Positions 2,150 to 55,177 of a stretch of 64,000 bases of DNA are shown here, piece by piece. Position 1 is the stretch's first letter. Every line of letters begins with the position of its first letter. This stretch comes from Coriobacteriia bacterium (GTDB lineage Bacteria > Actinomycetota > Coriobacteriia > Anaerosomatales > JAAXUF01), in contig JBBRWO010000002.1 of NCBI GenBank assembly GCA_038249135.1, positions 3,203 through 67,202 of the forward strand. The letters run 5' to 3'. The translations under genes and the position numbers were made by a program. The notes beneath the pieces are model-generated. The model searched no databases and had not been told where the DNA came from. It was given only the letters and a program-made list of their open reading frames with translations.

Positions 2150-2217
2150 GTTGCTCCCTCTCGTGTCCGCCGGCACTCGCGACAAAACTGTCGGCGCCTC
2201 ACGGACTGCAGGAGGTG

Positions 2218-2239
2218 ATTCTAGCGAACGTCACTGACA
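2218..2239 (-). promoter_or_regulatory. PafBC-type (RecA-NDp-like) promoter motif upstream of dnaB
   Basis: The minus strand reads c-TGTCAGTG-acgttcgc-TAGAAT. This is an exact fit to the remembered motif TGTCRGTG-N8-TAnnnT. The -10 element ends 69 nt upstream of the dnaB ATG. Confidence 0.5.
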
Positions 2240-14712: not shown

Positions 14713-14750
14713 CGAGGCCCGGCCATCATCCTCCCGTGGCCGGGCCTCGC
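14712..14750. terminator. Bidirectional hairpin between convergent genes
   Basis: A perfect 14-bp stem, gcgaggcccggcca/tggccgggcctcgc, with an 11-nt loop. It is followed on the plus strand by tccgtgtctttgc. Confidence 0.65.
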
Positions 14751-14785
14751 TCCGTGTCTTTGCTCGCATTCAGCGTGCGACGTTC

Positions 14786-15241
14786 TTACTGGACGCCCGG
14801 CTCTTCGTGAGCCGGATTCGTGTTGTGACACTTCATGCAGTCCTTCACGTGACGCACCGAGTGCTTGGCTTGCAGCACTGGATCATCGCTGTGACACGTG
14901 CACCCCGGGATCGGGATGGTGAACCGATAGTTCACCGGTTCGGCCGTGCCAGCGACGACCATGTCGTTGTACGCCGTCTTCATCTCCGGCGTACGGACCC
15001 ACATGCCGCCAAACTGGTACAGCAGCGCCGCAAGCACGATCAGGCCGACGATCGTCACGCCGACGCCGATGAAGATGCGCTTCACCACTCGCTTCCACCG
15101 GGGACCCGCCGGGGCACACGCGGCCTCCTCGGCCACGCTGCCCCGGGCGGTCTCCTCGGCGGGTAGTTCGTCCGCTTCGGCGCTGGTCTCCTCGGCGGTC
15201 TCCTCGGCGGGTGATACTTCTTGGGACTCGAAGTCGCTCAT
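14786..15241 (-). CDS. Membrane-anchored Cys/His protein with one CXXCH heme-c motif
   Basis: Acidic N-terminus, a single TM (IFIGVGVTIVGLIVLAALLY), then GCTCH and CMKCH. It starts 15 nt after the hcp stop. Confidence 0.6.
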   Translation of the reverse strand: MSDFESQEVSPAEETAEETSAEADELPAEETARGSVAEEAACAPAGPRWKRVVKRIFIGVGVTIVGLIVLAALLYQFGGMWVRTPEMKTAYNDMVVAGTAEPVNYRFTIPIPGCTCHSDDPVLQAKHSVRHVKDCMKCHNTNPAHEEPGVQ

Positions 15242-15256
15242 TTTGCAGGTCGCTTT

Positions 15257-16900
15257 CTAGCCGAGGATCTCGGCCAAGTCGGCCGCGGCGGACTCGCCGA
15301 TCGGCTTGATGTTGAAGTTCTCGACGAGCACGCCCAGCACGTTGGGGGTGATGAACGCCGGGAGTGTGGGTCCGAGGCGCATGTCGGTGATGCCGAGGGA
15401 GAGCAGCGTCAGCAGGACCGCGACGGCCTTCTGCTCGTACCACGACAGGATGATCGAGAGCGGCAGCTCGTTTACGCCGACCTCGAACGCGTCGGCAAGG
15501 GCCACGGCGATCTTGATCGCCGAGTAGGCGTCGTTGCACTGGCCTACGTCCATGAGGCGCGGCAGACCGCCGATCTCGCCCAGCTGCTTATCGAAGAAGC
15601 GGAACTTGCCGCATGCGAGCGTCAGTACGATGGTGTCGGCCGGGGTCTGCTCCACGAAATCCGTGTAGTAGTTGCGACCGGGCTTGGCGCCGTCGCAGCC
15701 GCCCACCAGGAAGAAGTGCTTGATCGCGCCGGATTTAACCGCCTCGATAACCGTCGGGGCGACGGACAGCACGGTGTTGTGACCGAAGCCGACCATGACC
15801 TCGACGGCGTCGGCGGTGGTGTCCTCGGCGAATCCGTCCATTGCGAGCGCCTTGTCGACAACCGCCGAGAAGTCAGCGCGCGACACGTGCGGCAGGCCCG
15901 GGAACTGCACGGGGCCGGAGGTGAATACGCGGTCCGTGTAAGACGCCTTGGGCGGCATCAGGCAGTTGGTGGTCATCAGCACGGCGCCGGGGAAGTTCGC
16001 GAACTCCTTGTGCTGGTTTTGCCACGCGGTGCCAAAGTGGCCGATGAACTGCGGATGCTTCTTGAGCTCCGGGTAGGCGTGCGTCGGCAGCATCTCACCG
16101 TGGGTGTAGACGTTGACGCCGGTGCCGTCGGTGGCCTTGAGGATCGCGTCCATATCGGCCAGATCGTGGCCGGAGACGAGAATCGCCTTGCCGGCCGCAT
16201 GGCCGAGCGGGACCTTGGTGGGGACAGGCTGACCGTAGGTGCCGGTGTTGGCCTCGTCGAGGATCTCCATGGCGCGCAGGTTCACCGAGCCACACTCGAG
16301 CGTCAGCGCGACCCAGTCGTTCAGGGTGAGCGACTCGTCGGAGAATGCAGCAAGTGCCTTGAACAGGTAGCTATAGATCATAGGGTCGGTCTTGCCCAGT
16401 GTGCGAGCGTGCTGCTCGTAGGCGCCGACGCCCTTCATGCCGTAAAGCGTGGTCTCCTGCAGCGACTGGATGTCAGGATCGGCCTCGCCGTTCCACGTCA
16501 CGCCCAGCTCCTGGCCCTGGGCGACCTTGCCCTCGACCGAGACGGCCGGGACGAACGTCGCGTAGATGCCCTCGTAGTGTGCGGGGCCACCGGCAGCCGC
16601 AACCGCAGCCTTCAGCGACTCGCGCAACGTGTAGGCCTCGTCGACGATTCCCGCGATGGACTGCGGGTCGAAGTCGACGTTGGTGAGCGTGGTGAACAGC
16701 GCGTCAGCGACGAACGCTCCGGCCGCGGCCGTGTCCACACCAAGCTTCTCGGCGTCGACTGCCACGAGCGCAATTCCGCGGCACGAGTTGACGAGCAGAT
16801 CCTGCAGAGCCGCGACGTCTTCCTTCTTGCCGCACACCCCCACAGTCGTACAGGCCTCGCCGTGAGCCGTCTGCTCACACTGATTACAGAACATAGACAT
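15257..16900 (-). CDS. hcp: Hybrid cluster protein / hydroxylamine reductase
   Basis: The N-terminus MSMFCNQCEQTAHGEACTTVGVCGK carries Cx2Cx8Cx5C. The remainder is conserved (GHDL, TNCLMPP, LACGKFRF). The ATG at 16900 has a GGGGAG SD. Confidence 0.95.
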   Translation of the reverse strand: MSMFCNQCEQTAHGEACTTVGVCGKKEDVAALQDLLVNSCRGIALVAVDAEKLGVDTAAAGAFVADALFTTLTNVDFDPQSIAGIVDEAYTLRESLKAAVAAAGGPAHYEGIYATFVPAVSVEGKVAQGQELGVTWNGEADPDIQSLQETTLYGMKGVGAYEQHARTLGKTDPMIYSYLFKALAAFSDESLTLNDWVALTLECGSVNLRAMEILDEANTGTYGQPVPTKVPLGHAAGKAILVSGHDLADMDAILKATDGTGVNVYTHGEMLPTHAYPELKKHPQFIGHFGTAWQNQHKEFANFPGAVLMTTNCLMPPKASYTDRVFTSGPVQFPGLPHVSRADFSAVVDKALAMDGFAEDTTADAVEVMVGFGHNTVLSVAPTVIEAVKSGAIKHFFLVGGCDGAKPGRNYYTDFVEQTPADTIVLTLACGKFRFFDKQLGEIGGLPRLMDVGQCNDAYSAIKIAVALADAFEVGVNELPLSIILSWYEQKAVAVLLTLLSLGITDMRLGPTLPAFITPNVLGVLVENFNIKPIGESAAADLAEILG

Positions 16901-17000
16901 GGTCAACTCCCCTTTTCCATTTCGTGGTCCTTCCGGCATTTCGTTCTTCAAGCAACTCAGCCGCAGTTTCACGGCGTAATGAACTTCGAGGCTCTTTCGT

Positions 17001-17023
17001 CCTGGACCTGACCATGGTCCAGG
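17001..17023. promoter_or_regulatory. Inverted repeat upstream of hcp (candidate operator)
   Basis: cctggacc-tgaccat-ggtccagg, with 8-bp perfect arms and a 7-nt spacer. It lies about 100 nt upstream of the hcp ATG. Confidence 0.3.
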
Positions 17024-17053
17024 TCTTCCCTAAGCCACATGCAGTCTCACGGA

Positions 17054-17180
17054 GAGCACGGGGCCGTGGGGGTCCCGCGCGAGTTCCGCAGCCGGGGTAG
17101 GTGGTCGGATGCATCGCATCCGTCCACCGAGGGCCCCCGGCAAGGACTGCCGAGCCCGGGACCCCCACGGCCCCGTGCTC
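17054..17180. repeat. 127-nt nested inverted repeat (rod-like hairpin) between the ferredoxin gene and hcp
   Basis: The outer arms are a perfect 24-bp pair: gagcacggggccgtgggggtcccg (17054-17077) and cgggacccccacggccccgtgctc (17157-17180). Inside are ccgggg/ccccgg (6 bp) and ggtggtcggatgc/gcatccgtccacc (13 bp, 1 mismatch, 3-nt loop). Confidence 0.9.
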
Positions 17181-17190
17181 GGCAGCAAGA

Positions 17191-17601
17191 CTACCCGTGG
17201 ATGAGCGCCGGCAAGCACCGAGTGCAAACCCACGTGCTGGTCCCCTGGGTCCGCACCGGCAACAGTGGCCCGTCATCCTCGGATCGGTTGCAGACGTAAC
17301 AGTGCTGCGCGATGTAGACCGGCTTGTTGGCCGCGACCGCCTCGGCGAGCTTCTCGGCGACGCGATCCTCTACGGCGGCCTCGTCAAACGGCACGGCTTC
17401 GCGGGTCTCGAGGGTCAGCGCGCCGGTGGGACATACGCCCAGGCAGAAGCCGGCGCCGTCGCACAACTCCTCTTTGACGACCTTGGCCTTGCCGTCGATC
17501 AGGACGATGGCGCCCTCGGCACACGGGCTGACACAGACGCCGCAGCCGTTGCAGAGCTCTTCATCGATATGGACGATTTGGCGGGTGACGGTGGTACTCA
17601 T
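17191..17601 (-). CDS. 2x[4Fe-4S] ferredoxin-domain protein with C-terminal CxxC...CxxC
   Basis: [16 protein letters not shown] and [16 protein letters not shown], with a C-terminal CYVC...CTRC. An AGGAGG SD is present. Its ATG overlaps the upstream TGA as ATGA. Confidence 0.85.
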
Positions 17602-18188
17602 CGGGTTTCCTCCTGGTGAATGGGGGTGCCGGCGGCCGCGGCGGCGGCCTTCTCGGCGGCGAGTCTCTTGTATTTCCGACCGTCGAGCACGTGCTTGATG
17701 CCGGCGATCGCGTAGCCTTTGCGCCACGACTTGGGACCCGAGTAGCGCATCATGCCCTGCTGCCATGCGCGCTCGTCGGCCTTGTAGCAGTGGGTCTCGC
17801 AGTAGGCGCAGAACGGCTTGGGGTCTTCCGGGCAGTACGCGCGTCGCTTCTCGGCGTAGGCGAGGTGCGCTTCGCACTCCTCACAGAGAACCGGGAGCTT
17901 ACGGCCGTAGATGCCCAGCTGGGCGGCCTCGGTCTGCGCGCTGTGCCGCGTTCGATCGCGGTGATGACCGTCGCACCAGATGGCGATGAAGTCACCGAGC
18001 GTGGTCGTATCGCTGACCACTTCCGAGTCCCTCATGCGCTCCACGAACTTCTGGTTCACTGCCCTGAGCCCTTCCGCGAATGCGACCGTGCGATTGCGGT
18101 ACCGGTCCGGCGATCTCGCGGGCACGTAGTCCTTACCCGCTCTCGCACCGTACGCTCCCCACACGGTGTGTTCTTTGACGCGGGTCAA
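17598..18188 (-). CDS. YgbA-like (nitrous-oxide-stimulated promoter family) Cys-rich protein with N-terminal extension
   Basis: IAIWCDGHH...[36 protein letters not shown]...MMRYSGP, matching the remembered YgbA pattern. The TTG start is from the ORF track and is uncertain. Confidence 0.65.
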
Positions 18189-18244
18189 TTCGCCGAAGAA
18201 TCTTTACACTGGGGGTAGGAAATGAGGGACGCCCCCATCCGATC

Positions 18245-19000
18245 ATGCGCGAATCCAGCGCAGTCACGCCGCGAAAGGCACCTGTGACAGCACCAAGCAA
18301 CATCCGTCCCGACGTGTGGGCCGCACTCCGAGGCTGCCGCCTCTGGCGCACCGCCTCAGATGACGCCGTCGCGGTACTGGCCCGTCGCGCGCACGTTCGC
18401 GAACTGGCTCGCGGTGCGTCGCTGGCACGTGAGGGCGAAGCCGCCGAGGAGTTCGGCGTGCTGGTGACCGGAAAGGCGCGGGTGTTCTATCTTGGCGCCG
18501 ACGGTCGGCAGATCACCTTCGAGACGATCTCTGCCGGCGAGCCACTGGCCGCCGTCGCTGCCATGGCAAACTCGCGCTACCCGGCCAACATCGAGGCTGC
18601 TACTCCGGCGACTGTCGCGTGCATCCCAACCGATGCGCTGTTCGATCTGCTCACCGCAGAGCCCCAGGTGGCGCGAACGCTGGTCGCGGACCTCGCGAAC
18701 CGGGTGGTGAACTTCACGGCCGTCGTTAGCACGCTGGCGCTCGATGTTCCCAGCCGAGTAGCCCGCTACGTCTTCCACCGCGCGCTGCAGTCGGGCACGA
18801 CGAGCTCGCGCGGACTCGAGATCGAGCTTGGCATGAAGAAGGGCGAGCTCGCGATGGCGCTCGGAACCGTGCCCGAGACGCTCTCTCGCGCGTTCGCGAA
18901 GCTCAAGGACGACGGCATCCTCGAGGTGCACGGTCAGTTGGTCACCATCCTGGACATGCGCGCGCTTGCAGCGCTGAGCAGCGGCTACGACGAGGGTTAG
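18245..19000 (+). CDS. Crp/Fnr family transcription regulator (HcpR-like by context)
   Basis: A cNMP-binding-type beta-barrel (GEAAEEFGVLVTGKARVFYLGADGRQITF) and a C-terminal HTH (MKKGELAMALGTVPETLSRAFAKLKDDGIL). It is divergent from the ygbA-fdx-hcp genes. Confidence 0.85.
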   Translation: MRESSAVTPRKAPVTAPSNIRPDVWAALRGCRLWRTASDDAVAVLARRAHVRELARGASLAREGEAAEEFGVLVTGKARVFYLGADGRQITFETISAGEPLAAVAAMANSRYPANIEAATPATVACIPTDALFDLLTAEPQVARTLVADLANRVVNFTAVVSTLALDVPSRVARYVFHRALQSGTTSSRGLEIELGMKKGELAMALGTVPETLSRAFAKLKDDGILEVHGQLVTILDMRALAALSSGYDEG

Positions 19001-19788
19001 TCGGCCGCGTCAGCGGTCTCGGTGGAAACGGTGGCTCCCGCGGCCTCAGCGGCCCGACGCGCCTTGCCTGCCGCAATCGCTTCCTTAGCACCCTTGTCCA
19101 GCGTGCCCGCCATCAGGAATCCCGCGAGAAGCATCGCCGAGGCGACCATCTCGCCCGGGTACAGGCCCACGGACACTCCCGCGCGTGCCATGCCACCGGC
19201 GGCGGCGATGGAGATCGTGCCGGCTGCGATGAGCACGTTGGCCCACACGCGGTACGCGTACTCACGCTTGCGAGCGAACCGGTAGATCGAGATCAGGGCT
19301 CCGCCCAGCAGGAAGACGGTGCCGGAGATGTTGAACGGTAGCGACATGATGCGAGGGAACACTCCGGCCGCGCCCAACGCCTGCCCACCGACGGTGATTC
19401 CCGGCACGAGCTTCTCAAGCCGCAGCGAGGTGTTGAACGCGCCCCACAGGAAGACGAGTTCCCAGCCGAGCAGCATCCCGAGGTAGATGTGCGGACCGGT
19501 CTTCTTCTTGGCGAGCAGATAGAAGGAGCCGAGACCCAGATAGCCGACCATCGACGCTGCCAACACGATGTAGATGCGGTAGACGGTGGGATCCCACACG
19601 CCGCGAAACTCCGAGACGGCCTCCATGAGCGCCGCGACCGCGTACATCATCAGTCCCACGGACCACGCCAACTGATGCGGCTTGCGCCGATCGATCCACT
19701 GCGAGAACACGAGCCACGTGAAGATGAAGCCAAGAATGGCCGTCATCGCGGGCCACCACCAGCCGGACCAGAACTCCATCGCAGTCAT
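18997..19788 (-). CDS. Polytopic membrane protein, unknown family
   Basis: Begins MTAMEFWSGWWWPAMTAILGFIF.... It has about 7 TM helices and an Ala-rich C-terminal tail. Confidence 0.55.
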   Translation of the reverse strand: MTAMEFWSGWWWPAMTAILGFIFTWLVFSQWIDRRKPHQLAWSVGLMMYAVAALMEAVSEFRGVWDPTVYRIYIVLAASMVGYLGLGSFYLLAKKKTGPHIYLGMLLGWELVFLWGAFNTSLRLEKLVPGITVGGQALGAAGVFPRIMSLPFNISGTVFLLGGALISIYRFARKREYAYRVWANVLIAAGTISIAAAGGMARAGVSVGLYPGEMVASAMLLAGFLMAGTLDKGAKEAIAAGKARRAAEAAGATVSTETADAAD

Positions 19789-19855: not shown

Positions 19856-20764
19856 CTACATCGCCTTCAGGGATTGGTCGGCGGCGCTCGCCTTGTCCCG
19901 CGCCTTGAAGTAACGCTCGGTGGGGGTGTCAGCCAGCGACTTGTAAGCGTCGGCGATTGCGGTGATCGGCGAGGGTGGCAGTGCTTTGTACATCGCGATG
20001 CCCTTCGCGTCAGCCTGGTTGTAGGCCGCGATGAAGGTATTGGCCACTGCGGGCTTGCCCGCGAGCCATGCAGCGTCGGACTTTCGCGAGATACCGACCT
20101 GTACCAGCTTCTGGTCCACGTACGCGACGTAGCGATCCAGCCCGGCCTCAGGAAACGCAGTAGCCGCCTGGCTGAACAGGTCGCGCGCGGACTGGAACGC
20201 CTTCTCAGCCTGCGCGTTCTTCACGGCCGAGTCCTGCACGCCGGCCTTGGTGAGCTTGTTGTACGACGCAACCGCCGAGTCCGCGAGTTTGTCGGCGGCG
20301 AGCGTCTCGTCCCACGCCTGCTGCGTCAACGGCTGAGACTTGGCCACCATCACGCTGGCCGAGAGGATTACCGGCGCCTGCTCCAACATGTCCAGCTTCG
20401 CATTCGCGGTCGCTTTCAGCAGATTCGCCTTCGCGCGCTCGGCGTTGTTGAGGTTGGGATATGCGACCTCGATGAGCGACACCGCCTCGGTAAGCTGATT
20501 CTTGGTGGTTGCGACGGTCGGCTCGAGCTCGAGCGCCTGCTGGCCGACCTCCGGTGTGACCTCGGCCCGGATGACCGTATCGATCGCGATCACGGACGTA
20601 TCCGCAGACTCCACGATGATGATCGCTTGGTCCATCTGCTTCGCCGAGGCGAGCCGTTTGCTCATGACACCCCAGCCCAGAATGCCTGCAACAACCACCA
20701 CCAGCACGCCGCCGATGATCAGCGCCGTCCATATCGTGCGTTCTCGACGTGCCTGATCGGTCAT
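19856..20764 (-). CDS. N-terminally anchored, predicted all-helical extracytoplasmic protein, unknown family
   Basis: A single TM (IWTALIIGGVLVVVVAGILGWGV), then about 260 aa rich in Ala/Lys/Gln. Its start overlaps the kinase stop as ATGA. Confidence 0.55.
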   Translation of the reverse strand: MTDQARRERTIWTALIIGGVLVVVVAGILGWGVMSKRLASAKQMDQAIIIVESADTSVIAIDTVIRAEVTPEVGQQALELEPTVATTKNQLTEAVSLIEVAYPNLNNAERAKANLLKATANAKLDMLEQAPVILSASVMVAKSQPLTQQAWDETLAADKLADSAVASYNKLTKAGVQDSAVKNAQAEKAFQSARDLFSQAATAFPEAGLDRYVAYVDQKLVQVGISRKSDAAWLAGKPAVANTFIAAYNQADAKGIAMYKALPPSPITAIADAYKSLADTPTERYFKARDKASAADQSLKAM

Positions 20765-22017
20765 GATGTGGCCTCACTTTCAGACCGCTCAGCGGTCCTG
20801 GGCAGTCGAATGGCGAACGTGCTTCCTGTTGCAGGTAGGCTCGCGACGGTGATGAATCCACCATGAGCCTCCGCGATCACGCGAGCAAGGAACAGGCCGA
20901 TGCCCAGCCCTTCTCGGCCACCGTGCAGGGATGTACCCGAATAGAAACGGTCGAAAATCCGGTCGCGCTCGGACGTATCGATGCCCGAGCCTGTGTCGGC
21001 GACCTCGATCACCACCTCGGTGGCGGTGCTGTAGAGGCTCACTCCGATGCTGGCTTCTTGCGGAGTGTGGCGCAGCGCGTTGTTGATCAGGCTCGCGATC
21101 GCCTGCGCGATTCGCCGGCGGTCAGCCGGAATCGGGCCGAGCCGCGGTTCGAAATCCATCACGACTCGCGTCTCCGCGCCGTGCACTCGGGCCACCGCAT
21201 CGGTGACCGCCGTCGCCAGGTTGGTGGGTTCCACGTTGAGCTCCAGCTCGCCACTCTCCAACTCAAAGATCACGTGGAGGTCGTCAAGAAGTGCCGACAT
21301 CTGTCCGGCGCGTTCCGAGAGGGCGCGGACCGTTCTGCTCCGACGCTCCTCGTCGTTGATGATCGCGGGATGCTGTAGAAGCTGCGTGAACCCGATCACC
21401 GCAGTGAGCGGATCGCGGAGTTCACGTGACACCACCTCGACGAAGTCGTTGCGATGCCGCTCGAGCCTCGTATCCGGTCCCAGCTCGCGCGTCAGCGACA
21501 TGATTGCTGCAGCGTCGCCGTCCTGGTCGAACACGGGAATCAGCACCATGCGCAACATGATGCGCGAGCCGTCTGAACGCATCGCCTGTCCGTCGCGCTC
21601 GGCCACGTAATCGCCAGCCGCGACCGCTCTAAGGTCGCTGATCAGGTGCAGCCGATTCTCCTCGGCGATGTGCGGCAGCTTCTTGCCGAGAACCTCGTGG
21701 GCGCTCCAGCCATACAGGTCCTCGCACGTGGAGTTCCAGCGCAGAACGTGGCCGTCGAGATCGAGCAGCTTGACGCAGTCACCGGAGTGCCGCGCGAGCG
21801 CCTCGAGAACCTCCTCGGCGTTGCCGATATAGAAACTTTCCTTGGCCGGCTGGTCCGAATCGAAACGGACTCCCGCAGAGGAAAGCGGAACGTATCGTGG
21901 TGCCGGTGCGTTGGTCACGCGTGCTCCTGTCCTCGCGTACTGGGTGTACGCTGCCGCTCTCTTGTACCGCACCTGAGCGTCCTCGGCAAAGGTGCCGTCT
22001 TCCGCGAAAATTGGCAT
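20761..22017 (-). CDS. PAS-domain histidine-kinase-like protein whose H-box His is Arg
   Basis: PAS region: LDLDGHVLRWNSTCEDLYGWSAHEVLGK. The H-box position reads FVEVVSRELRDPLTAVIGF, with codon CGT verified on the DNA. The N (INNALRHT), G1 (DTGSGI), F (FDRFY) and G2 (GLGIGL) boxes are intact. The start at 22017 is uncertain. Confidence 0.8.
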   Translation of the reverse strand: MPIFAEDGTFAEDAQVRYKRAAAYTQYARTGARVTNAPAPRYVPLSSAGVRFDSDQPAKESFYIGNAEEVLEALARHSGDCVKLLDLDGHVLRWNSTCEDLYGWSAHEVLGKKLPHIAEENRLHLISDLRAVAAGDYVAERDGQAMRSDGSRIMLRMVLIPVFDQDGDAAAIMSLTRELGPDTRLERHRNDFVEVVSRELRDPLTAVIGFTQLLQHPAIINDEERRSRTVRALSERAGQMSALLDDLHVIFELESGELELNVEPTNLATAVTDAVARVHGAETRVVMDFEPRLGPIPADRRRIAQAIASLINNALRHTPQEASIGVSLYSTATEVVIEVADTGSGIDTSERDRIFDRFYSGTSLHGGREGLGIGLFLARVIAEAHGGFITVASLPATGSTFAIRLPRTAERSESEATS

Positions 22018-22104
22018 GCACGTTGCTTTCACATTTCCGAGTCGCGGCGAACCGCCTCCTCCTCCCCCCTCAGAGGCGGGGAACGCCCGCTCAGGCAATA
22101 GAAC

Positions 22105-22140
22105 GGCCCGCGTCCCCCACGCGGGTCGTTTCGTTTCCCG
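22105..22140 (+). terminator. Terminator-like hairpin with T-rich tail and no upstream plus-strand gene
   Basis: Stem cccgcgt/acgcggg (7 bp, plus 2 flanking pairs), loop ccccc, then tcgtttcgtttcc. It lies in the kinase/pafB intergenic region. Confidence 0.35.
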
Positions 22141-22155
22141 AGACGGTTTGTGCCG

Positions 22156-22199: not shown

Positions 22200-23183
22200 A
22201 TGAGCGATGCCGTAGAGCGTCTCGTCAACCTCGCCCTCTTCCTTTCAGATGCCACGGTCCCCGTGACGCGCGATCGCGTGCGCGCCGAGGTCCAGGGCTA
22301 TCCCGCAGGCCAGGATGAGGACGCGTTCCTCCGTATGTTTGAGCGCGACAAGGACCAGCTCCGCGCCGCCGGCTTCACCATCCTCACCGACGAGGACAGC
22401 CGCTACTCCGTCGATCGCGACGCCACATTCGCCTCCACCGTTGACCTCACGCCGCAGGAGATCGCCGCCCTGCGCGCCGCGGGCACCGCGCTCCTCGCCG
22501 ACCCCTCCTTCCCCTTCGGCCCCGACCTTCGCCTCGCACTTGCAAAGATAGCCGCCGGGTCTGACAACGACGGCCCCGCCACCGCCATAGCCGCCGCCTC
22601 GCGACTCGCCGACGAGGACCCGGAGCGTCAGGGCGTCGCCGTCGCTGACCTTACCGCCGCAGCCACCGCCAGCAAGCGCGTCACCTTCGGCTACACCAAC
22701 TCCTACGGCTCCTCGGCCCCGCACGACGTCGAGCCCTACGGCCTCTTCCTGCACGACGGCCGTTGGTACCTCGTGGGCCGCGACCTCGCCCGCGACGAGG
22801 TCCGCACCTACACCGTCTCGCGCATGGACGCGATCGCCGTCAACACCGCCAAGCCCGCCACCCCGGACTTCGAGCGCCCCACCGGCTTCGACGTGGGCAG
22901 CTTCGTCCGCCTCCCCTTCCAGTACGGCCCGCCCGCCGAGGAGTTCGAGGCCGATTTCACCATCGACCCCTCCGCCGCCTGGCGTGCCAAGCGACTCACC
23001 GCCGGACAGGGCGAGCTGGTCGCTGACGGTGACGGCTTCCGCTGGCGCGTCTCGGCGCGGTCGGTTCCTCGGCTGGTGCGATTCGTGGTCGAGAACGAAC
23101 CCGGCGTGCGACTTATCGGCCCCCCACACGCGTGCACCGCGCTGCGCGACGGACTCGAGACGGTGGCGAACCTCCATGGCTAA
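22200..23183 (+). CDS. pafB: PafB-like HTH/WYL-domain transcription regulator
   Basis: MSDAVERLVNLALFL...AFLRMFERDKDQLRAAGF, then a WYL-type region RVTFGYTNSYGSSAPHDVEPYGLFLHDGRWYLVGRDLARDEVRTYTVSRM. Part of track ORF 21897..23183. Confidence 0.8.
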   Translation: MSDAVERLVNLALFLSDATVPVTRDRVRAEVQGYPAGQDEDAFLRMFERDKDQLRAAGFTILTDEDSRYSVDRDATFASTVDLTPQEIAALRAAGTALLADPSFPFGPDLRLALAKIAAGSDNDGPATAIAAASRLADEDPERQGVAVADLTAAATASKRVTFGYTNSYGSSAPHDVEPYGLFLHDGRWYLVGRDLARDEVRTYTVSRMDAIAVNTAKPATPDFERPTGFDVGSFVRLPFQYGPPAEEFEADFTIDPSAAWRAKRLTAGQGELVADGDGFRWRVSARSVPRLVRFVVENEPGVRLIGPPHACTALRDGLETVANLHG

Positions 23184-24108
23184 GCAGACCAGCACAGACA
23201 CCGCGCGCCGCCTCATCGCGCTCCTCGGCCACTTCCAGAACGAGGCGCAGATCCCGCTGGCCACACTCGCCGAGAAGGTCGGCGTGTCGCCCGCGCAACT
23301 CGCCGACGATCTCGCCACGCTCTCAGTCTGTGGCGTCGCGCCGTACTTCCCGGACATGATGGTCGACGTCTTCGTCGAGGACGGCATCGTGGAGGTGACC
23401 TCGCCGCTGCCCGCGATCAAGGGCGCGGTGCGACTGTCGTCCGCAGAGGCCGAGGCGTTGTCAGCCGCACTCGCGGCTGCCGGGTTCTCGGCTGACGACC
23501 CGCTGACCAGCAAGTTGCTCGCGGCCTCCTCGGCAGGCTTCGATGCCGAGGGACTCGCCCACACGCTGCGCACCGAGACCGCCGCGCACGACAGCGGCGT
23601 CTTCGAAACGATCGCCGGCGCAATCGCCGCATCCGAGGCGGTCGCGATCACCTACCAGCGCGACGGTGCCACCGCGCCCAGCACGCGCATCATCGAGCCG
23701 CACCGCCTGATCGCCGAGCGAGGCGCGTGGTACGTGACCGCCTACTGCCGAAGCGTCGGCGAGAACCGCACCTTCCGAGTCGATCGAATCCGTAGCGCCG
23801 AGGCGACCGGCGAGCACTTCGAGGCCGCCAGCCCCGAGGCCCCCGCCGCCGCGTTCACCGGCGAGGGCCTGCCGCTCGCACGCCTGCGATTCGCCGCGGG
23901 CGAGGCCTTCATCGAGCGCGAGTGGTCCGGCGGCCGTGTGCTGGAATCCGCCGAGGACGGCTCAACGCTGGCCGAGGTGCCGTTTGGGGGTACCGGCTGG
24001 ATCGCGCGCGCGGTGACAGCGCGGCTTGGAGCGGTCGAGGTGCTGGAGCCGAGTGAGGTGCGCGAGGCCGTGAGGGCGCTGGTGCGAGCGTTTGGGCGAG
24101 GATTCTGA
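23176..24108 (+). CDS. pafC: PafC-like HTH/WYL-domain transcription regulator
   Basis: RRLIALLGHF...LADDLATLSVCGVAPYFPDMMVDV, then AITYQRDGATAPSTRIIEPHRLIAERGAWYVTAYCRSVGENRTFRVDRI. It overlaps pafB by 8 nt (ATGGCTAA). Confidence 0.8.
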   Translation: MAKQTSTDTARRLIALLGHFQNEAQIPLATLAEKVGVSPAQLADDLATLSVCGVAPYFPDMMVDVFVEDGIVEVTSPLPAIKGAVRLSSAEAEALSAALAAAGFSADDPLTSKLLAASSAGFDAEGLAHTLRTETAAHDSGVFETIAGAIAASEAVAITYQRDGATAPSTRIIEPHRLIAERGAWYVTAYCRSVGENRTFRVDRIRSAEATGEHFEAASPEAPAAAFTGEGLPLARLRFAAGEAFIEREWSGGRVLESAEDGSTLAEVPFGGTGWIARAVTARLGAVEVLEPSEVREAVRALVRAFGRGF

Positions 24109-35547: not shown

Positions 35548-35651
35548 AAAAGCCTCCACACGTTGACGAAACGGACAACGCGGTACCGATGCGACTCTCG
35601 AGGAATAGCTCCAGGGAATCAGGATTCGAGACTCCGGCACGGTATCGCACC

Positions 35652-36825: not shown

Positions 36826-36922
36826 CGAGGGGGAGTAGCGCCCCGAGCGAACGATGCTCGGGGAGGCAGGCCGTCAGCACGGGCTCAGACCCCGGTTCTG
36901 TCCCCTAGCAGCGAGACTCTCG
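36826..36922 (+). ncRNA. yybP-ykoY-like (Mn2+) riboswitch leader of the plus-strand ATPase
   Basis: CGAGGGGGAGTAGCGCCCCGAGCgaacgatGCTCGGGGA...CCCCTAGCAGCGAGACTCTCG. The closing helix is CGAG/CTCG. The conserved GGGGAGUAGC and AGCGAGAC segments are present. An extended -10-like TGCTAGCAT lies at 36808-36816. Confidence 0.75.
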
Positions 36923-36961
36923 GCGGTACGTACACCTACGTTACCTGCCGAGGAGACACCT

Positions 36962-39787
36962 GTGATCAAGACCGACATCTCAGTTGCTGAAGCCGACGGT
37001 GCAGTCGCCGTCCAACCACCCGTCGCGTACCACACACTCACCATCGACCAGGTCGCGGCCGCCCTCGCGACAGACCCTGTCGGCGGCCTGAGCGCGGCAG
37101 AAGCCACACGCCGTCACGCCGAGAACGGGCCCAACCTGCTTCGTGAGACCAAGCCCACGCCCAAGTGGAAGCTGCTGGCGCGCCAGTTCGAGGACTTCAT
37201 GATCTGGGTGCTCATGGGAGCTGCGCTGCTTGCCGGACTCCAGGGCGAGTGGATTGACACTGCGGCCATCGTCACGATCCTGGTACTCAACGCAGTACTC
37301 GGATTCGCGCAGGAGTTCCGAGCCGAGCAGGCGCTTGCGGCGCTGAAGGAACTCTCAGCGCCAACCGCCCACGTGGTACGTGATGGCATCGAGTCCTCCA
37401 TCCACGCCTCGGAGCTTGTCGTGGGCGACGTCGTGGTCCTTGAGGCCGGCGACCAGATTCCTGCCGACGGTCGACTCCAGGAAGCGGCAGCACTGCGAAT
37501 CATCGAGTCCGCGCTGACCGGTGAAAGCGAGCCGGTCCACAAGTCGACCGTGCCGGTCCCAGATCCCAACGCATCGCTGGGCGACCGCGTGGACATGGTA
37601 TTCGCAGGCACTGCAGTCGCCGTAGGCCGTGGCCGCGTGATCATCACTGCCACCGGAACCGCTACCCAGGTAGGCAAGATCGCCGACCTCCTCGCGGAGC
37701 AAGAAGATGAGCAGACGCCGCTCCAGGCCGAGCTTCAGCGCGTGGGCAAGCGTATCGCCCTCATCGTGCTGGTCATCGCCGCCCTCATCTTCGCCGAGCA
37801 GCTCGCAACGGTCTTCGTAAGCACCGGCGACACCTTCGTCGAGGCGATCAACGACCCGGTCTTCCGCGTGGGTTTCACCGGCGCACTCCTGATCGCCGTC
37901 TCGCTCGCGGTCGCCGCGATTCCCGAGGGGCTGCCCGCTGTCGTCACCATCGCGCTCTCGCTGGGAGTGCGTCGCATGGCCGAGCACAACGCGATCGTCC
38001 GGCGCCTGACAGCTGTTGAGACGCTGGGCTCCACCACGTTCATCTGCTCGGACAAGACCGGCACGCTGACGCGCAACGAGATGACGGTGCGCCGCGCCGT
38101 GGTCGGGTTCGACTCCATCGCGATCAGTGCGGACTGGGGCATCGAACCCGAGGACCGCGTGCCGCACGGCGACGACATGGCACTGCTGCTCCAGATGGCC
38201 GCCGCCAACAACGATGCGCGTCCTAAACCGGACGGCGGTTTCCTCGGCGATCCGACGGAGACGGCGCTTCTCGAGGCTGCGAGCCGACTCGCTCCCGGTC
38301 ACCTGCGTCCTCGGCGTGTGAGTGAAGTCCCCTTCGATTCCGAGCGTAAGCGCATGACCACCATCCATGCGCTTGAGGATGAGCGGATCGCGTTCGTGAA
38401 GGGCGGCGCCGACGTGGTGCTCGGCCTGTGCACTCGCGCGCGTATCCGCGGCGAAGTCATCGAGCTCGACGACTCCGGTCGCGAAAAGCTGCGCACCACC
38501 AACGAGAATCTCGCATCGAGCGGGTTTCGCACGCTCGCCTTCGCCACCCGGACCCTCTCCGCCGATGAGGACGTCGAGAGCGAGACAATCGAGCGCGACC
38601 TGACGTATGTCGGCATTCTCGGCCTGGTCGATCCGCCGCGTGAAGAGGTGGCGGCGGCGCTCGCGGAGTGCAAGCATGCCGGCATCAAGGTCGCCATGGT
38701 CACGGGCGACCACGCGCTGACTGCTCGTGCCATCGCGATCCAGATCGGGTTGCTCGATGCGGATGCGCCGGAGACCTCGGTCATCACCGGCACAGAGCTC
38801 GCCTCGATGACCGACCAAGAACTGTGCGCTCGCGCCGAGGACGTTCGTGTCTACGCCCGCGTGAACCCTGAGGATAAGATCAGAATCGTCTCGGCGCTGA
38901 AGAACGACGGCGAGATAGTCGCCATGACCGGCGACGGAGTGAACGATGCGCCAGCGCTCAAGCGTGCTGACATCGGCATCGCGATGGGCAACATCGGTAC
39001 CGACGTGGCCCGAGAAGCCGCCGACATGGTGCTCGCCGACGACAACTTCGCGACGATCGTCGAGGCCGTGGGAGAAGGCCGCACCGTCTTCGATAACCTA
39101 CAGAAGGTCATCCTCTTCCTGCTTTCGTGCAACATGAGCGAGGTGCTGGTCGTGTTCACGACCGCCATCTTCGTCGCGTTCTTCCCTGAGCACGCACTGC
39201 TTGCGCTCCTGCCGTTGCAGTTGCTGTGGATCAACTTGGTCACAGACGGTCCACCTGCGCTCGCGTTGGGCGTCGACCCCGCCGATCCCACGGTCATGGA
39301 CCGTATGCCCCGCGACTCCAAGGAGCCGATCCTCTCGGGTCCGAGGATGAGCGAGGTCATCTGGCAGGGTGCGGTCATGACCGTCTTCGCGCTGGGAGCG
39401 ACGTTCGCTGCCGGCCCCCTCCTCGGCAGCACCGACGGCGCCGAGAACACGATGCTGTTCACCATCTTGGTGCTGTCGCAGAAACTCCATGCGTTCAACT
39501 ATCGCAGCGCGCGCGGTACCGTCTTCTCGATGCAGTCACTGCAGAACCGCTGGCTCAACATCGCCTTCGTGGCGACGGTGGCGTTGCAGATATCGGTCGT
39601 TCACTGGGAGCCGATGCAGAAGCTCTTCAAGACGACCGCACTCGGTACTCAAGAATGGATGCTGGTCGTCGGCTCGGCGTTCGCCTCGTTGCTGGTCATG
39701 GATCTGGTCAAGATAGTCATCGAGCGACGTCTGGCTGCCCGCGAAGCAACGGGCCGCGGTTCCGGTAGAGCGGAGGGTGCACGATGA
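36962..39787 (+). CDS. P-type cation-transporting ATPase (P2A/Ca2+-ATPase-like)
   Basis: CSDKTGTLTRNEM, TGESEPV, MVTGDH and AMTGDGVNDAPAL motifs. The GTG at 36962 has a GAGGAG SD 6 nt upstream. The track start at 36854 lies inside the riboswitch. Confidence 0.9.
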   Translation: MIKTDISVAEADGAVAVQPPVAYHTLTIDQVAAALATDPVGGLSAAEATRRHAENGPNLLRETKPTPKWKLLARQFEDFMIWVLMGAALLAGLQGEWIDTAAIVTILVLNAVLGFAQEFRAEQALAALKELSAPTAHVVRDGIESSIHASELVVGDVVVLEAGDQIPADGRLQEAAALRIIESALTGESEPVHKSTVPVPDPNASLGDRVDMVFAGTAVAVGRGRVIITATGTATQVGKIADLLAEQEDEQTPLQAELQRVGKRIALIVLVIAALIFAEQLATVFVSTGDTFVEAINDPVFRVGFTGALLIAVSLAVAAIPEGLPAVVTIALSLGVRRMAEHNAIVRRLTAVETLGSTTFICSDKTGTLTRNEMTVRRAVVGFDSIAISADWGIEPEDRVPHGDDMALLLQMAAANNDARPKPDGGFLGDPTETALLEAASRLAPGHLRPRRVSEVPFDSERKRMTTIHALEDERIAFVKGGADVVLGLCTRARIRGEVIELDDSGREKLRTTNENLASSGFRTLAFATRTLSADEDVESETIERDLTYVGILGLVDPPREEVAAALAECKHAGIKVAMVTGDHALTARAIAIQIGLLDADAPETSVITGTELASMTDQELCARAEDVRVYARVNPEDKIRIVSALKNDGEIVAMTGDGVNDAPALKRADIGIAMGNIGTDVAREAADMVLADDNFATIVEAVGEGRTVFDNLQKVILFLLSCNMSEVLVVFTTAIFVAFFPEHALLALLPLQLLWINLVTDGPPALALGVDPADPTVMDRMPRDSKEPILSGPRMSEVIWQGAVMTVFALGATFAAGPLLGSTDGAENTMLFTILVLSQKLHAFNYRSARGTVFSMQSLQNRWLNIAFVATVALQISVVHWEPMQKLFKTTALGTQEWMLVVGSAFASLLVMDLVKIVIERRLAAREATGRGSGRAEGAR

Positions 39788-40458
39788 GCGAGGGTCTGGA
39801 CGGTACACAGCTGGCGCTCCTGGCTCATGAGCTCCGGGGGGCGCTGACGGTGGTGCGTGGCCTGAATGATCTGCTACTCACCGGGCTGCCTCCTGCGCAG
39901 CAGATCTCCGCGCTCGAAGGCATCGATCGCGCGGTGCTGCGCGCTAACGCGCTCATCGAGTCGGCCCTCGCAGGTGAGATGCCCGCGCAGGTCGTGTCGC
40001 GAGAGCGCGTGGACCTTGCACCGCTGGTGGCGGGCATGGTCGCCGATCAGCGGGCGATCACGGGCCGTGAGATCGTTCTCGAGGCCTCCGCTGCTCCTGT
40101 CGTTGCGGGCGATGCGAATGCGCTGAGCCGCGTGCTGACCAACCTGATCGACAACGCGCTGAAGTATTCACTGGAGAAACAGACCATCGAGGTGAGCGTC
40201 TCTGTCGAGGGCTCCTCGGCAGTGATCGAAGTCTCTGACCATGGGCCGGGGATTCCCGAGGGCTGTGCGGAGACCATCTTCGAGCCCTTCGAGCGTCTGG
40301 GCCGAGACGCCTCTGTGCCGGGAACGGGACTGGGCCTGTCGGTGGTACGCGGCGTGACGGAGTCGCTCGGCGGCACGATCATCGCCGTGCCTCGCGACGG
40401 CGGCGGCACGATCATGCGGATGACGTTGCCGCTCGCGACGGGCCCAGGCGCGGTCTAG
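39784..40458 (+). CDS. Soluble histidine kinase core (DHp + CA) without sensor or TM domain
   Basis: The H-box is LALLAHELRGALTVV at residues ~11-25. N box LIDNALKYS, G1 DHGPGI, G2 GTGLGLSVV. Its start overlaps the ATPase stop as ATGA. Confidence 0.8.
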   Translation: MSEGLDGTQLALLAHELRGALTVVRGLNDLLLTGLPPAQQISALEGIDRAVLRANALIESALAGEMPAQVVSRERVDLAPLVAGMVADQRAITGREIVLEASAAPVVAGDANALSRVLTNLIDNALKYSLEKQTIEVSVSVEGSSAVIEVSDHGPGIPEGCAETIFEPFERLGRDASVPGTGLGLSVVRGVTESLGGTIIAVPRDGGGTIMRMTLPLATGPGAV

Positions 40459-55107: not shown

Positions 55108-55129
55108 ACCTCTCTGCTGGAGATAGCAA

Positions 55130-55153
55130 ACGAGGCGCCCGGGGGCGCCTCGT
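55130..55153 (-). terminator. Hairpin terminator downstream of jag
   Basis: A 10-bp stem, acgaggcgcc/ggcgcctcgt, with a 4-nt loop. It is followed on the minus strand by TTGCTATCT. Confidence 0.6.
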
Positions 55154-55177
55154 CGGATTACCTATGCAGAACAGACC

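What the first reader, a model, noticed from the sequence alone, without database searches (positions are those of the whole stretch)
20761..22017. PAS kinase with an intact ATP-binding domain but Arg in place of the phospho-acceptor His
The H-box position reads VVSRELRDPLTAVIGF. HisKA kinases have SHELR(T/N)PL at this position. I checked the DNA codon: it is CGT, one transition away from CAT. The N, G1, F and G2 boxes are all intact, so this is not a decayed gene.

There are two main possibilities. It could be a pseudokinase or scaffold. Alternatively it could be a trans-acting CA domain that phosphorylates a partner DHp. The only other kinase in the window (39784-40458) is the mirror image, with a His-containing DHp but no sensor. 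This raises the speculative idea of a heteromeric sensor-plus-acceptor pair.
Basis: partly seen in the sequence, partly recalled or inferred. Interest (0 to 1): 0.6.

Follow-up and report, generated by a model that had tools for sequence, protein, structure and literature searches.

The report
Conserved histidine-less sensor pseudokinase
This gene encodes a sensor-kinase look-alike that lost its phosphorylatable histidine long ago and has been kept that way by selection in a small group of anaerobic Actinomycetota, so it is a member of the already known class of "pseudo-histidine kinases", not a sequencing error or a decaying gene.

Summary
A PAS–HisKA–HATPase_c protein on the minus strand has Arg (CGT, 21424-21426) where the phospho-acceptor His should be, and its N, G1, F and G2 boxes are intact. 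The real start is probably GTG 21918 (385 aa), not ATG 22017.

The Arg is not strain-specific. All close orthologs (89% down to 44% identity) have Arg, encoded by CGT, CGC or CGG. None of about 65 family representatives has His; they carry R, Q, E, D, A, K, V, S, T or G. dN/dS is 0.03-0.09.

Most branches of the family have also lost the ATP-binding motifs. A trans-phosphorylating catalytic domain therefore cannot be the conserved function. The proposed partner at 39784-40458 is a complete DHp+CA kinase core from a much larger family.

Best reading: a DivL/PsmA/NifL-like pseudokinase that signals through its PAS domain and DHp dimer by protein contacts. Nucleotide binding is retained in this clade as a regulatory input.

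The gene sits in a conserved block: dinG–pafC–pafB, then divergently the pseudokinase and a 302-aa membrane-anchored helical protein. No receiver domain was detected in the 64 kb.

In passing I found a conserved, covarying RNA of about 100 nt with C-rich loops, resembling 6C/αr14, between the pseudokinase and pafB.

The parts
20761..21918 (-). Probable CDS of the His-less PAS–DHp–CA pseudokinase (385 aa from GTG 21918).
   Evidence: Translation. Pfam domains. AGGAG lies 6 nt upstream of GTG 21918. Most close orthologs are called at 385 aa. The stretch 21919-22017 shows low dS, aligns with non-3n indels and contains promoter blocks.
21481..21789 (-). PAS domain (residues 77-179 of the 418-aa numbering). 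It holds the largest group of family-invariant residues.
   Evidence: PAS_4 E=8e-12. Invariant D86 L87 D88 G89 W94 N95 E99 G103 G111 P115 R130 G150 P161 D164 across 18 family members. AF2 pLDDT is about 82-93.
21268..21453 (-). DHp / HisKA domain with a degenerate H box, SRELRDPL.
   Evidence: HisKA 37.1 bits against a cut-off of 26.9. Helices 184-214 and 223-254 in the AF2 model. dN/dS 0.03-0.05.
21424..21426 (-). Arg codon (CGT) at the phospho-acceptor position.
   Evidence: Orthologs use CGC and CGG at this site, and one more distant member has AAG (Lys). The residue aligns with His of canonical kinases and Tyr550 of DivL.
20794..21123 (-). HATPase_c (CA) domain with intact N, G1, F and G2 boxes.
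   Evidence: 84 bits. Box table. dN/dS 0.06.
21961..21989 (-). Probable sigma-A type promoter of the pseudokinase gene (TTGCCG-N17-TACAAG).
   Evidence: The same TTGC(C/G)N-N17/18-TACAA(G/A/C) element lies upstream of the gene in most syntenic loci, including ones with saturated synonymous divergence. It was not flagged by the strict consensus scan. The assignment is inferred, not shown.
19856..20764 (-). Co-transcribed partner gene 'p302'. It has an N-terminal membrane anchor and about 265 aa of all-helical domain, probably extracytoplasmic. Its ATG overlaps the pseudokinase stop codon (ATGA).
   Evidence: ORF coordinates. It is conserved directly downstream in nearly all loci. 37 clusters, all with no Pfam domain on record; the only source names are 'hypothetical protein', one from a Coriobacteriia MAG. 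AF2 pLDDT 93, seven long helices. No significant fold match. No Pfam or NCBIfam hit.
18997..19788 (-). Third gene on the same strand ('p263'), a multi-pass membrane protein present in only some lineages.
   Evidence: ORF. Present in L007, L015, L017, L021 and L030 but not L001 or L002. No family hits.
22200..24108 (+). Divergent pafB-pafC-like pair of WYL-domain regulators (pafB 22200-23183, pafC 23173-24108).
   Evidence: WYL, HTH_PafC and WCX domains. The divergent arrangement is conserved in about 15 species-level genomes.
22028..22144 (+). Conserved structured RNA between the pseudokinase and pafB. It has a three-part hairpin with loop CUCCUCCCCCCUC, then a terminator-like hairpin with loop (U/C)CCCCCA followed by a U-rich tail.
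   Evidence: Present once per locus in 19 of 19 complete syntenic loci plus one truncated copy. 87.6-91.7% of cells are paired, and 11 pairs carry compensatory changes, reached by 1/500 and 0/500 shuffles. MFE z = -3.9 on + against -0.65 on -. 33 G·U against 18 A·C cells. No Rfam family reaches its gathering score.
22012..22027 (+). Invariant TGGCAY-N5-TTGCW block directly upstream of the RNA. It matches the sigma-54 -24/-12 consensus.
   Evidence: GGCA and TTGCT are invariant in all 19 loci while the 6 nt between them vary. It is the only match in the window, with 0.07 expected. No rpoN or enhancer-binding protein was found in the window or the loci. Actinobacteria are reported to lack sigma-54 (PMC3162934), so the assignment is unverified.
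39784..40458 (+). The 'other kinase': a sensor-less but complete DHp+CA histidine kinase core. It is not part of the pseudokinase locus.
   Evidence: HisKA 27.4 bits and HATPase_c 96 bits. His is invariant in 120/120 homologs, with only 14-41 residues before it. Its start overlaps the stop of a P-type ATPase gene. Conserved beside P-type ATPase, Ddl and HtrA.

Best explanation
The gene encodes a soluble pseudo-histidine kinase with PAS, DHp and CA domains.

Shown:
- It cannot autophosphorylate at the canonical site, because that residue is Arg.
- The loss of His is ancient, fixed and under purifying selection.
- The whole family of about 65 representatives lacks the His.
- The PAS domain and the DHp helices are the parts conserved family-wide.
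- ATP-binding motifs survive only in some branches, including this one.

Inferred:
- The protein forms a DHp-mediated dimer whose PAS domain receives a cytoplasmic signal.
- Its output is a change in protein-protein contacts rather than phosphotransfer. This is how DivL works (Tyr at the His site, all boxes retained, no kinase or phosphatase activity, senses a phosphorylated response regulator). It is also how PsmA and NifL work.
- In this clade the intact CA domain most likely still binds ATP or ADP as an allosteric input. The Arg may contact the nucleotide phosphate and so stabilise a CA-on-DHp closed state; this last point is speculative.

The likeliest functional partner is the translationally coupled membrane-anchored helical protein p302. 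The divergently encoded PafBC regulators and the small RNA between them are candidates only by conserved adjacency.
For: - Arg at the His position in the window and in P0001-P0012 (89 to 44% identity).
- The codon is CGT, CGC or CGG in different orthologs. dN/dS is 0.07 for PAS, 0.03 for DHp and 0.06 for CA.
- Syntenic orthologs from about 15 species-level genomes carry R, D, G, V or A at this site and never His. One further, more distant relative (L087) carries K.
- A profile search of 1.84 billion representatives gives about 65 single-module family members with R, Q, E, D, A, K, V, S, T or G. Only one edge sequence, a canonical kinase, has His.
- CA boxes are intact in the window clade and the basal Q-type branch, and degraded elsewhere.
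- Invariant family columns include a large group in the PAS domain and further ones in the DHp helices.
- The AF2 model shows a standard PAS-DHp-CA fold.
- The best solved-structure sequence hit is the pseudokinase DivL (E=1e-32). Foldseek finds WalK, VicK, YF1, DivL (TM 0.81) and NifL.
- DivL retains the H, N, G1, F and G2 boxes yet has no kinase or phosphatase activity (PMC4211667).
- PsmA is an actinobacterial histidine pseudokinase with a variable residue at the His site (PMC12963549).
- 0.9% of HisKA domains lack the His (PMC12632262).
- The operon and synteny are conserved.
Against: - No biochemical data exist. Nucleotide binding is inferred from motifs only, and DivL shows that intact boxes can accompany weak ATP binding.
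- No partner has been identified. p302 has only about 10 cytoplasmic residues, so direct contact with a soluble protein is not obvious.
- Conserved adjacency to pafBC may simply reflect block synteny in a narrow lineage. The neighbouring crp/hcp genes are equally conserved.
- Strong conservation of the CA boxes in this clade would also fit a catalytic role.
Confidence: 0.7

Rival explanations
1. Trans-acting catalytic domain. The intact CA domain phosphorylates the His of another kinase's DHp, either the sensor-less kinase at 39784-40458 or another paralog. The two would form a heteromeric sensor-plus-acceptor pair, as in M. tuberculosis HK1/HK2.
For: - CA boxes are intact and under purifying selection in this clade.
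- The small kinase has no sensor domain.
- HK1-HK2-TcrA is listed among M. tuberculosis two-component systems in the review read here (PMC9321153). That it is a split kinase, with the ATP-binding and His-carrying parts on separate proteins, is from my own knowledge.
Against: - The small kinase has its own complete CA domain (HATPase_c 96 bits, all boxes) and needs no donor.
- Its family is far larger than the pseudokinase family.
- The genes are 18 kb apart, in different operons.
- The DHp regions align only weakly (score 41).
- Most pseudokinase family members have lost the N/G1/G2 motifs while keeping everything else.
Confidence: 0.07
2. Phosphatase-only, or response-regulator-binding, remnant of a two-component kinase. 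It dephosphorylates or sequesters an orphan response regulator encoded elsewhere.
For: - The conserved His is not essential for HisKA phosphatase activity (PMC12632262).
- Glu at His+1 is kept in the closest orthologs.
- The basal Q-type branch keeps a full E-x-x-N motif, SQELRNPLT.
- DivL works by binding a phosphorylated regulator.
Against: - In this clade the His+4 position is Asp, not the Thr/Asn required by the E/DxxT/N phosphatase motif.
- Glu at +1 is Q or R in P0011 and P0012.
- No receiver domain was detected in the 64-kb window by phmmer with PhoB and CheY.
- None appears among the called genes of the syntenic loci whose Pfam content was listed.
Confidence: 0.1
3. Non-canonical kinase. 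The CA domain phosphorylates the Arg itself (a phosphoramidate, like phospho-His) or another residue or substrate such as Ser, Thr or Tyr.
For: - Arg together with Glu at +1 and a full set of ATP-binding boxes is strictly conserved in the closest clade.
- Nothing in the sequence excludes it.
Against: - Many family branches keep Arg but have a degraded CA domain, so Arg is retained without a kinase.
- Glu at +1 is not conserved in the R/CA+ members P0011 and P0283.
- From my own knowledge, no GHKL histidine kinase is known to phosphorylate arginine.
Confidence: 0.04
4. Artefact or recent lesion: a sequencing error, a strain-specific mutation of CAT to CGT, or a decaying pseudogene.
For: CGT is one transition from CAT.
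Against: - Independent assemblies from many samples show Arg, with three different Arg codons.
- dN/dS is 0.08 overall.
- The reading frame is intact, and the operon and promoter are conserved.
Confidence: 0.01

Closest known systems
DivL (Caulobacter crescentus pseudo-histidine kinase, PDB 4q20)
   Same: - PAS-containing HisKA-type protein with a non-His residue fixed at the phospho-acceptor site and all other boxes retained.
- Best sequence match among solved structures (E=1e-32, about 34% identity over DHp-CA; TM 0.81).
- Acts without kinase or phosphatase activity.
   Different: - DivL has Tyr, not Arg.
- It has several PAS domains and a membrane anchor.
- It is alphaproteobacterial and is defined by its partners DivK and CckA.
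- No DivK-like receiver is seen here. The similarity is generic HisKA similarity, not orthology.
PsmA (Streptomyces histidine pseudokinase; PMC12963549)
   Same: - Actinobacterial HisKA-type protein lacking the His.
- The residue at that site varies among orthologs.
- The H box lacks the E/DxxT/N phosphatase motif.
- No autokinase activity, and function is independent of restoring the His.
   Different: - PsmA is a large hybrid kinase-like protein with a receiver domain and a DivIVA-binding N-terminus, restricted to Streptomycetaceae.
- The present protein is a 385-aa PAS-DHp-CA module in Coriobacteriia-like lineages.
NifL (anti-activator of NifA)
   Same: - PAS sensor, then an H-type helical domain, then a GHKL nucleotide-binding domain.
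- From my own knowledge, it signals by protein-protein contact, with nucleotide binding as a regulatory input rather than for phosphotransfer.
- It appears among the fold matches (9qq6).
   Different: - NifL is co-transcribed with its target NifA, a sigma-54 activator.
- No such activator is found here.
PhoR / PnpS / WalK / VicK-type kinases (cytoplasmic PAS next to HisKA)
   Same: - Same domain order.
- These are the best-scoring curated families: PnpS 157 bits, PhoR 149, WalK 130.
- WalK and VicK are the top fold matches.
   Different: - All scores are far below the equivalog cut-offs (334-725 bits).
- Those kinases have the His, transmembrane segments and an adjacent response regulator.
M. 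tuberculosis HK1/HK2 (Rv0600c/Rv0601c) split kinase
   Same: HK1-HK2-TcrA is listed as an M. tuberculosis two-component system in the review read here; the split-kinase mechanism is from my own knowledge.
   Different: - From my own knowledge, HK1 and HK2 are adjacent genes that each lack what the other has.
- Here the candidate acceptor has its own CA domain and lies 18 kb away.

Membership tests
Functional HisKA-type sensor histidine kinase | DHp (HisKA) four-helix-bundle domain | tested here: met
   PF00512 at 37.1 bits against a cut-off of 26.9. Two long helices at 184-254 in the AF2 model.
Functional HisKA-type sensor histidine kinase | Phospho-acceptor His in the H box | tested here: not met
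   Arg (CGT) at the aligned position. No conserved alternative His nearby: H188 and H216 are not conserved beyond about 60% identity.
Functional HisKA-type sensor histidine kinase | HATPase_c domain with N, G1, F and G2 boxes | tested here: met
   PF02518 at 84 bits. Boxes intact.
Functional HisKA-type sensor histidine kinase | Cognate response regulator, usually adjacent | tested here: inconclusive
   No receiver domain was detected in the 64-kb window by phmmer with PhoB and CheY. None appears among the called genes of the syntenic loci whose Pfam content was listed. An orphan regulator elsewhere cannot be excluded.
Functional HisKA-type sensor histidine kinase | ATP-dependent autophosphorylation | not testable with these tools
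   Needs an in vitro assay.
Pseudo-histidine kinase (class: DivL, PsmA and others) | Recognisable HK fold lacking the phosphorylatable His | tested here: met
Pseudo-histidine kinase (class: DivL, PsmA and others) | The loss is fixed in orthologs and the gene is under purifying selection, so it is not a pseudogene | tested here: met
   About 65 representatives without His. dN/dS 0.03-0.09.
Pseudo-histidine kinase (class: DivL, PsmA and others) | No autokinase activity; function through protein interaction | not testable with these tools
   Inference only.
DivL orthologs | Tyr at the His site, multi-PAS architecture, alphaproteobacterial DivK/CckA context | tested here: not met
   Arg at the site, a single PAS domain, Coriobacteriia-like MAG context.
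HisKA phosphatase-competent DHp | E/D at His+1 and T/N at His+4 (the E/DxxT/N motif) | tested here: not met
   The sequence is R-E-L-R-D: +1 is Glu and +4 is Asp. The motif definition is cited from PMC12963549.
Split kinase pair (HK1/HK2 type) with 39784-40458 | The partner has a DHp with His but lacks its own ATP-binding domain, and the genes are adjacent | tested here: not met
   The partner has HATPase_c at 96 bits with N, G1, F and G2 boxes. It lies 18 kb away in another operon.
6C RNA (Rfam RF01066), for the RNA found in passing | Two hairpins whose loops each carry a run of six or more C, in an actinobacterium | tested here: met
   Loops are CUCCUCCCCCCUC and (U/C)CCCCCA in 19 loci. In the window itself the second loop has five C.
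6C RNA (Rfam RF01066), for the RNA found in passing | Score at or above the family's gathering threshold | tested here: not met
   17.6 bits against 47. ar14 scores higher, at 22-27 bits against 58.8. I therefore do not file it as 6C, only as 6C-like in design.
Sigma-54 promoter, for the block at 22012-22027 | -24 GG / -12 GC consensus TGGCAC-N5-TTGCW | tested here: met
   TGGCATGCACGTTGCT. It is invariant at GGCA and TTGCT in 19 loci.
Sigma-54 promoter, for the block at 22012-22027 | The organism encodes RpoN and an enhancer-binding ATPase | tested here: inconclusive
   Neither is found in the window or the held loci. Actinobacteria are reported to lack the system.

The most novel reading that the evidence does not exclude
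In the Arg-plus-intact-CA clade, the conserved Arg with Glu at +1 might itself be the phospho-acceptor. The kinase would then autophosphorylate on arginine, giving a phosphoramidate chemically akin to phospho-His, and start an Arg-based relay.

A less radical but still new reading is that the pseudokinase, the C-rich-loop small RNA and PafBC form one conserved stress or DNA-damage regulatory module. In that reading the pseudokinase would act like NifL on a transcription activator.
Probability: 0.03. Interest if true: 0.9.

Novelty: new member of a known kind. Interest (0 to 1): 0.35.

Why it matters
Pseudo-histidine kinases are a small class: about 0.9% of HisKA domains lack the His (PMC12632262). 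Few have been studied; DivL and PsmA are the ones read for this report.

This family offers a natural series within one orthologous, syntenic lineage. It runs from His-less with intact ATP-binding motifs, carrying Gln or Arg, to His-less with a degraded catalytic domain. That is a useful system for asking what a kinase fold does after it stops transferring phosphate, and whether nucleotide binding persists as a regulatory input.

Its fixed position next to PafBC and a conserved small RNA gives concrete candidates for partners. For genome annotation, these proteins should not be called 'sensor histidine kinase'.

Tried and rejected
- **Sequencing error or strain-specific mutation.** Rejected by orthologs and synonymous Arg codons.
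- **Pseudogene.** Rejected by dN/dS.
- **Nearby response regulator.** None detected with phmmer using PhoB and CheY.
- **PafBC-type promoter motif between pafB and the pseudokinase.** Absent there. The motif tGTCgg-N10-tA-N3-T (PMC8635444) was searched as TGTCRGTG-N7-9-TANNNT. The only hits are at 841-861 and 2218-2239.
- **Known RNA family in the intergenic region.** None reaches its gathering score. The weak ar14 and 6C hits are far below threshold.
- **Reading the conserved intergenic block as an N-terminal extension of the protein.** Rejected, because indels are not multiples of three and conservation exceeds that of the CDS.
- **The RNA lies on the pseudokinase strand, as a 5' UTR.** Disfavoured. 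z is -0.65 against -3.9, there are fewer G·U pairs, there is no conserved U tail, and the predicted pseudokinase promoter lies downstream of it.
- **Function of p302.** No Pfam, NCBIfam or fold match.
- **A published description of Arg-substituted histidine kinases.** None found.
- **The weak covariance-model hit at 55115-55180.** It is just a similar terminator hairpin after the gene ending at 55178.
Full report
**Observation.** The minus-strand ORF at 20761-22017 translates to a 418-aa protein with the sequence VVSRELRDPLTAVIGF. Pfam finds PAS (77-179), HisKA (189-250, 37 bits) and HATPase_c (299-408, 84 bits). The residue at the phospho-acceptor position is R198, codon CGT at 21424-21426. 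It aligns with the His of canonical kinases and with Tyr550 of DivL. The N, G1, F and G2 boxes are intact.

**Gene boundary.** ATG 22017 is probably not the start, for five reasons.
- Most of the close ortholog gene calls are 385 aa and begin at the equivalent of GTG 21918.
- That GTG has an AGGAG 6 nt upstream.
- The first 62 residues of the long version are disordered in the AF2 model.
- The DNA between 21919 and about 22140 is more conserved than the coding sequence and aligns with indels that are not multiples of three.
- A conserved TTGC(C/G)N-N17-TACAA(G/A) promoter-like element sits at 21989-21961, downstream of that ATG, in most related loci.

**Is the Arg fixed?** Yes.
- The twelve closest clusters (89% down to 44% identity) all have Arg.
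- The codon is CGT here, CGC in two relatives and CGG in a third.
- Against the nearest relatives, dN/dS is 0.07-0.09 for PAS, 0.03-0.05 for DHp and 0.06-0.07 for CA.
- Syntenic orthologs from about 15 species-level MAGs (Coriobacteriia, Anaerosomatales, 'Actinomycetota bacterium') carry R, D, G, V or A, and a further, more distant relative (L087) carries K. None has His.
- A profile search of 1.84 billion representatives returned about 65 single-module family members of 300-508 aa. They have R (the commonest), Q, E, D, A, K, V, S, T or G at the site. The only one with His is a canonical kinase at the family's edge.

Sequencing error, strain-specific mutation and pseudogene are therefore excluded.

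**State of the catalytic domain across the family.** The N-box Asn, the G1 DxGxG motif and the G2 GxGxG motif are intact in the window's clade and in a Q-type group (SQELRNPLT, often about 500 aa). They are partly or wholly lost in most other branches. A rough neighbour-joining tree without support values places the Q/CA-intact forms basally. It places the window's R/CA-intact clade as sister to a large CA-degraded clade. This suggests an old H to Q to R path and repeated later decay of ATP binding. Family-invariant columns include a large group in the PAS domain and further ones in the DHp helices. The conserved function therefore rests on PAS and DHp. ATP binding is dispensable in many lineages but is maintained by selection here.

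**Context.** The block is conserved down to about 32% protein identity. Its order is:
- dinG-like exonuclease-helicase, pafC and pafB;
- then, divergently, the pseudokinase, p302 and, in some lineages, p263;
- then a convergent crp/fnr-type gene and an hcp (hybrid cluster protein) group.

The stop codon of the pseudokinase overlaps the ATG of p302 (ATGA). p302 is a 302-aa protein with one N-terminal membrane helix and an all-helical body (AF2 pLDDT 93). It has no family or fold match, and its 37 clusters carry no Pfam domain; the only source names are 'hypothetical protein', one from a Coriobacteriia MAG. No receiver domain was detected in the 64 kb.

**Comparison with known proteins.**
- The best-scoring curated families are PnpS, PhoR and WalK, all far below their cut-offs.
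- Fold matches are WalK, VicK, the LOV-kinase YF1, DivL and NifL.
- The best solved-structure sequence match is DivL itself (E=1e-32).
- DivL has Tyr at the His site, keeps all boxes, has no kinase or phosphatase activity, binds ATP weakly and acts by sensing a phosphorylated response regulator (PMC4211667).
- PsmA of Streptomyces is another actinobacterial histidine pseudokinase, with a variable residue at the site and no autokinase activity (PMC12963549).
- About 0.9% of HisKA domains lack the His (PMC12632262).

The class is therefore known. This family appears undescribed.

**The heteromeric-pair idea.**
- The protein at 39784-40458 is not a DHp in need of a catalytic domain. It has HisKA plus a full HATPase_c (96 bits).
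- Its His is invariant in 120 of 120 homologs, and only 14-41 residues precede it.
- Its family is much larger than the pseudokinase family, with 706 hits.
- It is translationally coupled to a P-type ATPase gene and conserved beside Ddl and HtrA.
- The two genes do co-occur on the same contigs in related genomes, but so does everything else in this syntenic region.
- Most of the pseudokinase family has lost its ATP-binding motifs.

For these reasons I rate the trans-kinase model as unlikely (0.07), although it is not excluded for this particular clade.

**Mechanism.** Shown: there is no canonical phospho-acceptor; the loss is ancient; selection acts on all three domains; and the E/DxxT/N phosphatase motif is incomplete, because Asp occupies His+4. 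Inferred:
- The protein is a DHp dimer whose PAS domain takes a cytoplasmic input.
- Its output is a change in protein contacts, as in DivL, NifL and PsmA.
- Nucleotide binding persists as an allosteric input in this clade.
- The Arg possibly contacts the nucleotide phosphate; this is speculative.

Partners are unknown. p302 is the best candidate because of translational coupling. PafBC and the RNA described below are candidates by adjacency only.

**Found in passing: a conserved RNA.**
- Between the pseudokinase and pafB lies an element present once in every complete syntenic locus (19 of 19, plus one truncated copy). It is conserved even where the proteins are about 32% identical.
- On the window's + strand (about 22038-22140) it folds into a three-part hairpin with loop CUCCUCCCCCCUC. 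A second hairpin follows, with loop (U/C)CCCCCA and a U-rich tail.
- On a sequence-only alignment, 87.6% of cells pair, against 34-48% when partners are slid. Eleven pairs show compensatory changes, reached by 1 of 500 shuffles.
- On the model-fitted alignment the figures are 91.7% and 0 of 500.
- The + strand is favoured by the folding z-score (-3.9 against -0.65), by 33 G·U against 18 A·C cells and by the U tail.
- Directly upstream is an invariant TGGCAY-N5-TTGCW block at 22012-22027, which is the sigma-54 -24/-12 consensus. It is the only such site in the window, with 0.07 expected.
- I could not find rpoN or an enhancer-binding protein, and Actinobacteria are reported to lack sigma-54 (PMC3162934). 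That reading is therefore unverified.
- No Rfam family reaches its gathering score. ar14 (22-27 bits) and 6C (17.6 bits) are the nearest in design, both being small RNAs with C-rich, anti-Shine-Dalgarno-like loops.
- The PafBC structure paper raised an RNA-based ligand as a possible activator of PafBC and discussed 6C RNA in that context (PMC6789036). A 6C-like RNA gene fixed next to pafBC is therefore worth a follow-up of its own.

**Verdict.** The 'mirror-image pair' half is not supported. This is a new, conserved family within a known class. Interest is moderate to low for the kinase itself, and somewhat higher for the conserved pafBC, small RNA and pseudokinase arrangement.

Noticed in passing
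window 22028-22144 (+), with promoter-like block 22012-22027 (+): A conserved, covarying structured RNA of about 100 nt with two C-rich loops and a terminator-like 3' hairpin. It lies between the pseudokinase gene and pafB and is present in all 19 complete syntenic loci. It is preceded by an invariant TGGCAY-N5-TTGCW block that matches the sigma-54 consensus. No Rfam family reaches threshold; the design resembles 6C and ar14.
   Followed up: yes
window 21961-21989 (-): A conserved TTGCCG-N17-TACAAG promoter-like element for the pseudokinase gene. It lies back to back with the RNA's promoter-like block, which implies that ATG 22017 is not the start codon.
   Followed up: partly
window 2218-2239 (-) and 841-861 (+): Two exact matches to the mycobacterial PafBC-dependent promoter motif, searched as TGTCRGTG-N7-9-TANNNT (0.04 expected). 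One lies about 30 nt upstream of dnaB (767-2185, minus strand). The other lies inside the 3' part of dnaB on the opposite strand. This suggests a PafBC-type regulon in this organism.
   Followed up: partly
window 39784-40458 (+): A sensor-less, soluble histidine kinase core of 224 aa whose start overlaps the stop of a P-type (Ca-type) ATPase gene (ATGA). It belongs to a large family with an invariant AHELRGA H box and only 14-41 residues before the His. It is conserved beside P-type ATPase, Ddl and HtrA, and no response regulator is nearby.
   Followed up: partly
window 19856-20764 (-) and 18997-19788 (-): Two membrane proteins downstream of the pseudokinase with no family or fold match. p302 has a single anchor and a confidently predicted seven-helix body. 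p263 is multi-pass.
   Followed up: partly
window 13663-19000: A nitrosative-stress-type cluster next to the locus: a crp/fnr-family regulator (18245-19000, +), a ferredoxin-like protein (17191-17877, -), hybrid cluster protein Hcp (15257-16972, -) and a HAMP-only protein (13663-14712, +). The same cluster, with a YgbA_NO gene, is conserved in related loci.
   Followed up: no
window 32857-35640 (-) and 36854-39787 (+): Two divergently oriented P-type cation ATPase genes of the same Pfam architecture lie side by side. FeoB (30496-32352, -) is next to them.
   Followed up: no
window 55115-55180 (-): A terminator hairpin (ACGAGGCGCC-CCC-GGGCGCCTCGTTTGCT) after the gene ending at 55178. It closely resembles the 3' hairpin of the small RNA, which supports reading that hairpin as a terminator.
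   Followed up: partly
family members P0286, P0293, P0296, P0297, P0320, P0336 (not in the window): A basal branch of the His-less family has Gln at the His site, a complete E-x-x-N phosphatase motif (SQELRNPLT) and intact ATP-binding boxes. Several of these members also carry an N-terminal extension of about 130 aa. They may be phosphatase-only relatives.
   Followed up: no
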